Below are positions 16,101 to 19,100 of a stretch of DNA of 64,000 nt, in pieces (the stretch's first letter is position 1; each line of letters begins with the position of its first letter). A program made the position numbers. This stretch comes from Magallana gigas (taxonomy: Eukaryota), in assembly GCF_963853765.1 (NCBI RefSeq), contig NC_088861.1, positions 35,526,001-35,590,000 of the forward strand, in the 5' to 3' direction.

Positions 16101-19100
16101 ACACAGGTCCTTCTGGAGTCTCTTGGAGATCACAAAGTAATCCAGCCGCCTGTTCACAGAGACAAAAACACAAAAATTAGAAGCAATACAACACAGTTAT
16201 GAAAGCTCTTATAATCATTAACAGGCTATTTATGGTCCAATGTTTTTTTCCTTTTATCCATTCCTCCTTAACAACACCCCACTCACCAGCCAATATTTTT
16301 GGCACGGGCGTTCATCATGTAGGTCCAGAAGGACCAGCAGTCGCGGGCGTTGGGGTAGAGGACGCGGAACGAGTCCAGGAAGCCCTCCTCAAGCAGCTTA
16401 CTGAAGCCCTCCCTCTCCTTGTCCGTGTAGCCCGGCGTCTTGTTCCTGTTGCTGGTCGGGTTCTTTAGATCTGTGTGCAAGGGTAAACTTGAGACAATGG
16501 AAGTAATAGTTAACACACATATATACATGAAGTTGCTAGATGTTGAGGTCTCCACACATTATGATAGAGGACCTGGCACATAGAGTCATTAAAACACTCT
16601 GACACTGCCTGATCATTGAGGTCCGATCACATTATAAATTCATTAACATTCATATACATTCCTACGTGAGTGTGTAACACATTAAGGTCCCCACACAAGA
16701 TGATTTGGGCAATTATTAGACACCTGTCCCTAACAATCGAATACCTACGGGAGTTTGTGACACATTGAGGTCCCAACAATATGGTAGAGGTACATTTTCA
16801 CACATACCTACTGGAGTTACACATTGAGGTCCCCACACATGATTGATTCATTAACACATACCTACAGGTGTGTGTGACACATTGAGGTCCCCACACATGA
16901 TTGATTCAATAACACATACCTACAGGAGTGTGGGACACGTTGAGGTCCCCACACATGATGACTGGCTTCTTGGCGTCCAGCTTCTTTAGGTAATCAGTGA
17001 AGTCGCAGTCCCACTGCTCTGTCCTATACTTCAGACGAACCAAACCTTTACCAGAATTTGGCACATCTGAAATTGATCAAGTTTACTTAAAACAAACACT
17101 AGTATAGCCTTGCATCTATATCTACTACAAAACATATCAACACTTATCATTAAACTTTAAATTATGGTATTTTTTCATTAGTTTACGTTTTAAAACTTTT
17201 TTACAACTAGAATCAAAAAATTCTAAATTCTAAAAAAATGGGCCTAATACAAGGTGCTTATTGCACTGTTCTGGTGAAAGACTCTAAAAACTAATTAAAG
17301 TAATCGAAAGAAAGTTAAGTGTTGAGAAAAAGATTAAGAAACATTAATAAAGGACGAATTACAAAACCAAATACAATCTGTCATTTGAATGTAATCTTAC
17401 ATGCATTCACCATGTAGAAGTCTTCATACTCGGCAGTGATAACCCTCCCTTCATCATCATGCTTGGGAATACCTGTAACAACAGCAACAGTTAAATCAAC
17501 ACCAAATCAGTGCATCGGAATGAGGGATACAAAATACAAAATTGAGTCAGGCCAACATCATTTACATGTAATAATAATCTATATGTTTGATGTACTCCGA
17601 CCCTAATTTTTTCATGGTGGCTAGGGTTGTAGCTCTCTTTTTTTTTGGGGGGGGGGGGGGGGATAATTTTCATTTAACATTTACTGATACAATAACGTTA
17701 TCTAAATGTGTTTTAATATGACATGGACAATCAATTTTTCAAAAAATTCAAATTCAAGATGTTAAATTTTGATGGGTCTGTCGGAATACATAAAACAAAT
17801 CAATTTTAAACTTTGGCCTCAACTTTTCATAATGGAGCACAGTTTTAGATGTCTTAAATACTTTGAAATCTCATATGCACAGTGTCAATATTCAAAGGAA
17901 CACAGATTTTCTAAGATTGTAGTATTCATTAATATAATAGTTATTACGTACATGAAATATAAATTTACATGTACCAGGTACATAAAATATTCATATAATC
18001 ATATTTACGATCAAATGTAACAAAAATATCCCACCCTTTTATAAAAATTTCACACCTGCAGAGGCACAAAAACTTTTGAAATGAAGCTTAAAACTAAAAA
18101 GTTTAAAATAAATGTAAAGTTTGAAATGTACATGCACTTGAAATTCAAATACTGTAAACGTAAGCACTACATTTGGCTGTGCATTCTATTTAGCGGTTTA
18201 GGCAAAATGCAATTACCATTAGAGCTATGCTTATATCACATTCAGGAAAACGCTAATTCAAATCCACGCAAACTTATTCAAAACCTAATTTTGCCAAATA
18301 TCGTACATAATATGTTTATGGTACATAAAATTACAAGTGCCTGTACTTCAAGCTATTTCCTTCCTTTAATGCCCCTATAAGTACATGCAATCTCTCACCA
18401 AGCCCGTAGGTGACCTTGATGGGCTTCTTCTTGCTGTAGAGTCCAGTGCCAGCGTAGCCCGCTTTCTCGGCAGGCGACCAGTAGATGTGGTAGTCCTTGT
18501 CCAGCACCCCCGGGGGTAGCTGATCCTCCTGACACTTGGTCTCCTGTACACATAAGATGTCCGGCGACGACTCCTTGATGTACGACATCTTGTCTTTCTG
18601 GGAAAGGAAGAGAAAGGAACAAAGACTGAATTTAATTTAACTGAGGATCAATAATTCAAACAGACTGAGAAGTTGGATGCCTCCTGAAGGGTCACATATT
18701 GAATAGATGCATATGTTTTTAAAAGAGAAATTACTATCAATTTGACCTTGACCTTCATAAAATTGAACTCTAAGACTATTAAATGTTTAATTTTTACCTT
18801 GACATTTATTGCCACCTAACTGAAAATAATCCGTACAAAAAGACAAATGGATAAATTTTTAAAAATTTTGGGTTTCAACTTTGGCTTTTCCATTTATAAT
18901 TAAATCAATTCAATGTTCAAAAAATCATTTAAATGCATGCATGCATGATGAACAATTTATTTTAGAAATTCTGGTCTAAAGTTAATGCCCATTCACTGAC
19001 CTCAATGACAACAAAAGCTATATGTTCAAAGCACAAGTTCAAGACTTATTTTCTGTCAAAACAATCCAAACACTTACATCATACCACGCCCGGATTCCAT

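What the first reader, a model, noticed from the sequence alone, without database searches (positions are those of the whole stretch)
16535..16962. APEX1 intron holds serial, decaying copies of the catalytic GDLNVSH exon end plus donor
About six ~58-bp copies of the exon 8 end follow the true donor; this segment encodes the equivalents of human Asp210/Asn212. The nearest copy still encodes IMCGDLNVSHTPV exactly and has an identical G|GTATGT donor 58 nt downstream. Using it would read G-M-C-Y-stop. Copies decay with distance from the exon, consistent with repeated duplication from, or conversion with, the exon end. This is a second, independent gene showing the CTU1 pattern.
Basis: partly seen in the sequence, partly recalled or inferred. 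Interest (0 to 1): 0.68.

Follow-up and report, generated by a model that had tools for sequence, protein, structure and literature searches.

The report
Exon-boundary minisatellite in APEX1 intron
The intron after a catalytic exon of a DNA-repair gene is built almost wholly of decaying tandem copies of that exon's end plus its splice donor, which is a known kind of repeat ("mirage" minisatellite) and is probably harmless to splicing.

Summary
On the minus strand an APEX1-like exon (17066-16920) ends ...IMCGDLNVSHTPV, followed by donor TAG|GTATGT. The 449-nt intron (16919-16471) holds six copies of the last ~40 exon bases plus the donor. Local identity to the exon end is 93, 88, 87, 83, 80 and 78%. 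Five of the six beat all 500 shuffles. The copies fill 405 of the 449 nt. Copy 1 encodes the same 13 residues. Copies 1 and 2 keep the identical 9-base donor. Using either adds 58 or 112 nt and reads G-M-C-Y-stop.

The motif occurs nowhere else in the window. Two introns of the neighbouring CTU1-like gene show the same pattern. Overall 3 of 17 donors and 0 of 17 acceptors have such copies.

This is a minisatellite whose first unit spans an exon-intron boundary. That kind is already described: human F7 IVS7, CBS and IFI6 (PMC1557585), and the "mirages" of amphioxus (PMC3087553). The most upstream donor is probably the one used. It gives a protein colinear with human APE1.

Recent conversion from the exon is not supported. 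I rate it a new member of a known kind, of modest interest. No RNA, population or orthologue data could be consulted.

The parts
16920..17066 (-). APEX1-like coding exon, the fourth of six seen in the window. It ends ...KKPVIMCGDLNVSHTPV plus G of a split Asp codon.
   Evidence: Sequence and ORF. PDB phmmer: zebrafish APEX 2o3c E 2.5e-13; human 1e9n_A residues 172-216. Pfam Exo_endo_phos E 1.7e-4, below the whole-protein cut-off.
16902..16959 (-). Unit 0, the master unit: the last 40 exon bases (16959-16920) plus the first 18 intron bases (16919-16902).
   Evidence: The extent of homology to c1 is -40..+18 relative to the donor.
16914..16922 (-). Authentic 5' splice site TAG|GTATGT. The last exon base is 16920.
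   Evidence: Joining 16920 to 16470 gives a protein colinear with human APE1: exon 4 matches residues 172-216(218), the split codon is 219, and exon 5 starts at 220.
16844..16901 (-). Copy 1, 54/58 identical to unit 0. It encodes IMCGDLNVSHTPV. Its pseudo-donor TAG|GTATGT lies at 16864-16856 and would add 58 nt.
16800..16843 (-). Copy 2, 42/48 identical with a 4-nt deletion. Its pseudo-donor TAG|GTATGT lies at 16810-16802 and would add 112 nt.
16741..16778 (-). Copy 3, 33/38 identical. Its donor is weakened to TAG|GTATTC (16747-16739).
16656..16703 (-). Copy 4, 40/48 identical. Its donor is destroyed: TAG|GAATGT (16664-16656).
16616..16635 (-). Copy 5, a remnant with 16/20 identity. It is in register but not significant on its own.
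   Evidence: 51 of 500 shuffles reach its score. The repeat finder family D2 at 62%.
16515..16564 (-). Copy 6, the oldest, 40/51 identical. No donor is left, and the CpG has decayed to CA.
16471..16514 (-). The 44 nt of the intron that are not repeat. They carry the pyrimidine-rich 3' end and the acceptor ...ttgcacacag.
16287..16470 (-). The next APEX1-like exon (DLKNPTSNRNK...AKNIGW).
   Evidence: PDB phmmer 2o3c E 1.1e-19; 1e9n_A residues 220-279.
9439..9620 (+). The same kind of array in CTU1-like intron 3: copies of about 29 nt of the exon end ...AACAGATCGGCCTCAAAAATAACT plus the donor.
   Evidence: Donor query z 10.9. Copies at 9477 (22/24), 9507, 9535 (23/25) and 9598.
9759..10267 (+). 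The same kind of array in CTU1-like intron 4: about 22 units of 22 nt, each 16 exon bases GATAGGATAGTTACAG plus GTAAAT. ACAGGTAAAT occurs 10 times.
   Evidence: TRF; (z 8.9).

Best explanation
This is a boundary-spanning ('mirage'-type) minisatellite.

A segment of about 58 nt, made of the last 40 bases of the exon and the first 18 of the intron, was duplicated head to tail. It then multiplied by slippage or unequal exchange. I infer that this enlarged a short ancestral intron of roughly 60 nt to 449 nt. Selection on the catalytic GDLNV motif holds the exon copy fixed. The intronic copies drift: they lose the CpG, lose the donor and acquire indels. The distal copies are therefore the most decayed.

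I also infer, from published precedent and from colinearity with APE1, that the spliceosome uses the most upstream donor. The two intact downstream donors would then be silent pseudo-sites. If used, they would add 58 or 112 nt and hit a stop after four codons. The array itself needs no function.

Shown here: the repeat, its exonic origin, its decay, and the reiterated donors. Inferred: which donor is used, the duplication mechanism, and the ancestral intron size.
For: - Repeat structure and significance. No copy elsewhere in the window.
- Homology covers a coding motif conserved from bacteria to man. ExoIII and Xth chains also match. The direction of copying is therefore exon to intron.
- The array occupies 405 of 449 intron nt.
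- Donor 9-mers along the array run intact, intact, intact, weakened, dead.
- The exon CpG (AAC|GTG) reads TG in c1-c5 and CA in c6, as expected for unselected copies.
- Only the first donor gives a protein colinear with human APE1. Read-through stops after GMCY.
- There is no RNA structure (z +1.38; 94 of 100 shuffles fold as well), no Rfam family and no inverted repeat.
- Precedent 1: in human F7 IVS7 the first 37-bp monomer spans the boundary, and 4-8 identical pseudo-sites stay silent because the most upstream site is chosen. IFI 6-16, CBS, LMNB2 and PDGF are listed as like cases (PMC1557585; abstract, introduction and discussion read).
- Precedent 2: amphioxus 'mirages' in Adh3, globins, TnC and PGBD5 do not disturb splicing (PMC3087553 and PMC3902484; passages read).
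Against: - No transcript data were available, so exclusive use of the first donor is not shown. In IFI 6-16 and CBS two pseudo-sites are used as well (PMC1557585).
- Copies lie at 3 of 17 donors and 0 of 17 acceptors. All three minisatellites inside the introns of these two genes touch a donor. Neutral slippage alone does not predict this bias.
- The three c1 differences are all synonymous (chance about 0.010). This can be explained away but not excluded as constraint.
- The gradient is strict only for local alignments.
Confidence: 0.8

Rival explanations
1. Regulated unproductive splicing. On this view the intact pseudo-donors of c1 and c2 are used in some tissues or conditions. They would yield stop-containing transcripts that are degraded, and so tune APEX1 output. 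The array would then be maintained for that purpose.
For: Two downstream donors are identical in all nine positions and sit in near-identical exon-like context. Both lead to a stop after four codons. In human IFI 6-16 and CBS the first two pseudo-sites are used constitutively (PMC1557585).
Against: Copies 3-6 have lost their donors and decay freely. The CTU1 arrays differ in unit length and phase, which points to a mutational rather than a designed origin. In F7 the identical pseudo-sites are silent. There are no expression data.
Confidence: 0.1
2. Exon-driven gene conversion. On this view the nearest copies stay similar because the exon repeatedly overwrites them, not because they are young.
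For: Identity is highest next to the exon.
Against: At 2 of its 3 differences from the exon, c1 carries the state found in older intronic copies. c1 is about as close to c2-c4 (88, 78, 82%) as the exon is (86, 76, 80%). One of those two sites is a CpG, so this evidence is thin.
Confidence: 0.06
3. Assembly artefact: a collapsed or mis-expanded repeat or haplotype mix at this position.
For: The amphioxus globin paper notes one mirage that was aberrantly assembled in a draft genome (PMC3087553). The window has three N runs elsewhere.
Against: The copies differ from one another by 7-35% and by indels, unlike a duplication error. Three separate arrays of different unit length show the same logic. 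No N lies within 25 kb of the array.
Confidence: 0.03
4. Copy 1 is an alternative coding segment, such as an alternative exon end or a mutually exclusive piece.
For: Its peptide is identical to the exon's. All three of its differences are synonymous.
Against: It lies 58 nt downstream, hence out of frame, behind a TGA. No acceptor precedes it. The protein is already colinear with APE1 without it.
Confidence: 0.01

Closest known systems
Human F7 intron 7 37-bp VNTR, with the like cases IFI 6-16 intron 2, CBS intron 13, LMNB2 and PDGF intron 4 (Borensztajn et al. 2006, PMC1557585; abstract, introduction and discussion read)
   Same: A minisatellite whose first monomer spans the exon-intron boundary. 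The authentic donor is followed by sequence-identical pseudo-donors.
   Different: The F7 unit holds 4 exon and 33 intron bases; here it holds 40 exon and 18 intron bases, so a catalytic coding motif is reiterated. F7 copies are uniform and polymorphic in number; here they are few and graded in decay. Donor usage has been tested for F7 and is untested here.
Amphioxus 'mirages' in Adh3, globins BflGb6/9, TnC and PGBD5 (Ebner et al. 2010, PMC3087553, and PMC3902484, passages read). The original Canestro et al. 2002 paper is not held and I did not see it.
   Same: Minisatellite-like tandem duplications of exon-intron boundaries with units of 10-160 bp. They recur in several genes of one genome, many carry AG/GT, and they do not disturb splicing.
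   Different: In amphioxus both 5' and 3' boundaries are affected; here only donors are (3 of 17 against 0 of 17). My six literature searches turned up no mollusc report.
Rogers-type intron gain by tandem duplication of an AGGT-containing segment (as summarised in PMC4974935, passages read; Gao & Lynch 2009 and Hellsten et al. 2011 known to me only as cited there)
   Same: Each unit starts with GT and ends with the exon-derived TAG, so it carries the AG|GT signal pair.
   Different: No new intron is shown to arise here. An existing intron is lengthened. Whether the intron pre-dates the array could not be tested.

Membership tests
Boundary-spanning ('mirage') minisatellite | Head-to-tail tandem copies of one unit | tested here: met
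   TRF period 58, 3.8 copies. Six-member family. Six copies aligned.
Boundary-spanning ('mirage') minisatellite | The first unit contains the authentic exon-intron junction | tested here: met
   Homology runs from -40 to +18 around the donor. The junction is fixed by colinearity with APE1.
Boundary-spanning ('mirage') minisatellite | The splice-site sequence is reiterated inside the intron | tested here: met
   TAG|GTATGT occurs three times, followed by two decayed versions.
Boundary-spanning ('mirage') minisatellite | Normal splicing is kept; pseudo-sites are silent or minor | not testable with these tools
   No transcript data. The only indirect evidence is that just the first donor keeps the frame.
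Boundary-spanning ('mirage') minisatellite | Copy-number polymorphism or instability | not testable with these tools
   Only a single sequence is available.
APEX1 / ExoIII-family AP endonuclease (host gene) | Exo_endo_phos fold with the GDLN catalytic Asp/Asn and the C-terminal SDHCP His | tested here: met
   Exon-by-exon matches to APE1 chains. Pfam PF03372 on two exons. The last exon ends ...GSDHCPIMLLMAGLK. The exons were searched singly; the joined coding sequence was not built or searched.
Rogers-type intron gain by tandem duplication | The intron is absent from relatives and was created by the duplication | not testable with these tools
   No orthologous loci could be fetched. The open collections hold only prokaryotes, phages, plasmids and E. 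coli.
Recursive splice site (ratchet point) | Juxtaposed 3' and 5' splice sites inside a very long intron, with a strong pyrimidine tract | tested here: not met
   AG|GT is present. But the intron is only 449 nt, and the tract before TAG is mixed C/A/G.
Dispersed repeat / transposable element | Copies at unrelated places | tested here: not met
   The 26-mer with up to 3 mismatches has 4 matches, all in the array. This covers the window only; the rest of the genome was not searched.

The most novel reading that the evidence does not exclude
In this genome, tandem duplication across 5' splice junctions may be a frequent, donor-biased way in which short introns grow. In two neighbouring housekeeping genes, 3 of 17 donors and 0 of 17 acceptors carry such arrays, and two of the three host introns would be only about 60-66 nt long without them.

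The duplications may be tolerated because units cut at an AG|GT junction are self-correcting. Every unit begins with GT and ends with an exon-derived AG. Any in-register pair of array sites removes whole units and regenerates the same exon-donor junction, so a wrongly chosen donor could still be repaired by a second splice.

If the organism is a mollusc, this would also extend 'mirages' beyond chordates.
Probability: 0.2. Interest if true: 0.55.

Novelty: new member of a known kind. Interest (0 to 1): 0.3.

Why it matters
Identical donors in tandem are a natural test of how a spliceosome picks one 5' splice site. Here the test sits in an invertebrate, at an exon that carries catalytic residues of an essential repair enzyme. 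A mis-choice would truncate the protein after those two residues and remove the C-terminal third of the enzyme.

The local density, three arrays in about 12 kb, all at donors, hints at a lineage-wide route of intron lengthening. That could be measured genome-wide. Beyond this, the structure is an ordinary, probably neutral minisatellite.

Tried and rejected
- Dispersed repeat: rejected within the window.
- Structured RNA or a known RNA family in the intron: none found. No inverted repeats.
- Acceptor-side copies: none at 17 acceptors, maximum z 2.8. One intron was first mis-placed and was redone with the same result.
- Weak donor-side signals at CTU1 introns 6 and 10 (z 3.8 and 4.9): they looked like short chance matches, so I do not count them.
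- The large arrays at 44261-44686 and 47125-49770 as further boundary arrays: no exon could be identified beside them. Pfam gave 0 families for 8 of 8 ORFs.
- The C. elegans minisatellite paper (PMC4039745, passages) and the human splicing-repeat catalogue (PMC10078293, passages): neither treats boundary-spanning repeats.
- CTU1 exon 2 against PDB: no match. Identity of that gene rests on Pfam zn-ribbon_14 (E 3.4e-18) and weak NcsA/TtuA hits below the whole-protein cut-offs.
- Left unchecked because closed or absent: orthologous introns, other copies of this genome, protein homologue searches, metagenome and viral collections, and supplements of papers. I left the single prokaryote genome scan unused because it cannot hold this locus.
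- The organism was not determined.

Full report
**What is there.**
The gene lies on the minus strand. I read six coding exons by eye from the sequence and stop-to-stop ORFs:
- about 19263-19078
- 18597-18399
- 17472-17401
- 17066-16920
- 16470-16287
- 16149-16029

I searched the exons one at a time. I did not build or search the joined coding sequence.
- Exon 4 matches APE1/APEX1 chains: zebrafish 2o3c at E 2.5e-13, and human 1e9n_A residues 172-216.
- Exon 5 matches 2o3c at E 1.1e-19 and 1e9n_A residues 220-279.
- Pfam finds Exo_endo_phos on exons 2 and 4.

Query Asp40 and Asn42 fall on residues 210 and 212 of the 318-residue human chain. That this chain numbering equals the usual human numbering is my inference from its full length.

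Exon 4 has 48 whole codons (residues 172-218) and exon 5 starts at 220. One split Asp codon lies between them. So joining 16920 to 16470 gives a protein colinear with human APE1.

I do not take this window for human. The exons are roughly two-thirds identical to vertebrate proteins. The N runs were left alone.

**The repeat.**
TRF and the repeat finder both report the array. I aligned the exon plus 18 intron bases against the rest of the intron. This gave six copies:

| Copy | Coordinates | Identity to exon end | Percent |
|---|---|---|---|
| c1 | 16901-16844 | 54/58 | 93 |
| c2 | 16843-16800 | 42/48 | 88 |
| c3 | 16778-16741 | 33/38 | 87 |
| c4 | 16703-16656 | 40/48 | 83 |
| c5 | 16635-16616 | 16/20 | 80 |
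| c6 | 16564-16515 | 40/51 | 78 |

- The best score among 500 shuffles was 26. The copies c1-c4 and c6 scored 41-96.
- c5 scored 20, which 51 shuffles reached, so it is a remnant accepted only for its position.
- Spacings are 58, 58, 59, 83, 66 and 72 nt. The array covers 405 of the 449 intron bases and leaves 44 nt with the acceptor.
- The core 26-mer, with up to three mismatches, occurs only here in the 64 kb (4 matches, 0 expected).

**Decay.**
- Local identities fall monotonically (exact p 1/720).
- Over a fixed 51-nt window they are 92, 86, 76, 80, 63 and 77%, which is only a trend (rho -0.71, p 49/720).
- The donor 9-mer is TAG|GTATGT at the exon, c1 and c2. It is TAG|GTATTC at c3 and TAG|GAATGT at c4, and it is absent from c5 and c6.
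- The exon's CpG in AAC|GTG reads TG in c1-c5 and CA in c6. These are the two products of CpG decay.

**Copy 1.**
- It encodes IMCGDLNVSHTPV.
- It differs from the exon at three third-codon positions. Three random changes would leave the peptide intact with probability 0.010.
- One difference is the CpG site. One (TCC against TCA) is shared with c3 and c4. So it arose either in the exon, where only silent changes survive, or in an ancestral intronic copy. Only ACT to ACA is private to c1.
- I therefore see no need for selection on c1, and no sign that the exon recently overwrote it.
- c1 lies 58 nt out of phase behind GMCY-stop.

**Surroundings.**
The neighbouring plus-strand gene is CTU1/Ncs6-like. 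The evidence is zn-ribbon_14 at E 3.4e-18 and weak NcsA/TtuA hits.

I tested 17 donors and 17 acceptors of the two genes. Each 40-nt junction query was run against its own intron with 300 shuffles.
- Strong copies appeared at three donors: APEX1 intron 4 (z 24.7), CTU1 intron 3 (z 10.9) and CTU1 intron 4 (z 8.9).
- No acceptor gave a hit (maximum z 2.8).
- CTU1 intron 4 holds about 22 units of 22 nt, each 16 exon bases plus GTAAAT. ACAGGTAAAT occurs ten times. There is no gradient: the most exon-like units, at 95%, lie at 9993-10190.
- Every TRF array of period 15 or more inside the introns of these two genes belongs to one of the three boundary arrays.

**Other readings of the locus.**
There is no Rfam family in the window. 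The fold is no better than shuffles (z +1.38). There are no inverted repeats.

**What is known.**
- PMC1557585 (abstract, introduction and discussion read) describes the human F7 intron-7 VNTR. Its first monomer spans the boundary. Its identical pseudo-donors are functional but unused, because the most upstream site is chosen. The paper lists IFI 6-16, CBS, LMNB2 and PDGF as like cases. Two pseudo-sites are used in the first two of these.
- PMC3087553 (passages) and PMC3902484 (passage) describe amphioxus 'mirages'. These are tandem duplications of exon-intron boundaries in Adh3, globins, TnC and PGBD5. They have units of 10-160 bp, leave splicing undisturbed, and are unstable in copy number.
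- The founding paper (Canestro et al. 2002) is not held.
- Six searches found no report from molluscs. That is a statement about this library only.

**Verdict.**
- The structure is a boundary-spanning minisatellite that has lengthened the intron. The exon is its fixed master copy.
- Use of the first donor is inferred, not shown.
- The kind is known. This instance and the two in CTU1 are new members.
- The donor-only bias and the local density are the only features that go beyond the precedents. They rest on 17 junction pairs.

Noticed in passing
window 9439-9620 (+): CTU1-like intron 3 holds four to five decayed copies of about 29 nt of the preceding exon end plus donor. Without them the intron would be about 66 nt long.
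   Followed up: partly
window 9759-10267 (+): CTU1-like intron 4 holds about 22 units of 22 nt (exon end GATAGGATAGTTACAG plus GTAAAT). Ten units carry ACAG|GTAAAT, which looks closer to the donor consensus than the authentic ACAG|GTACAT. The first pseudo-donor lies 30 nt downstream and would add ten residues in frame.
   Followed up: partly
window 47125-49770: A 30-nt unit repeated 88 times at 90% matches. No exon or Pfam family was found beside it.
   Followed up: partly
window 44261-44686: A 32-nt unit repeated 13 times. Many units contain CACAG|GTGCAA. The array lies about 170 nt from an N run (43910-44091). No exon was identified beside it.
   Followed up: partly
window 19503-20018 and 21385-21896: Near-identical (98-100%) direct repeats of about 500 nt, 1.88 kb apart. 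They flank a 368-residue minus-strand ORF (20315-21421) with no Pfam match, just upstream of the APEX1-like gene.
   Followed up: partly
window 25691-26764 (+): A single 358-residue open frame with ankyrin repeats and a C-terminal SOCS box (ASB-like).
   Followed up: no
window 29977-30171 (+) and 38897-39076 (+): An exon-sized ORF with a ShK domain (E 1e-7), and a fragment matching DUF5641 (E 6.3e-5).
   Followed up: no
window 35992-36221: A 112-nt unit present 2.1 times at 99% identity.
   Followed up: no
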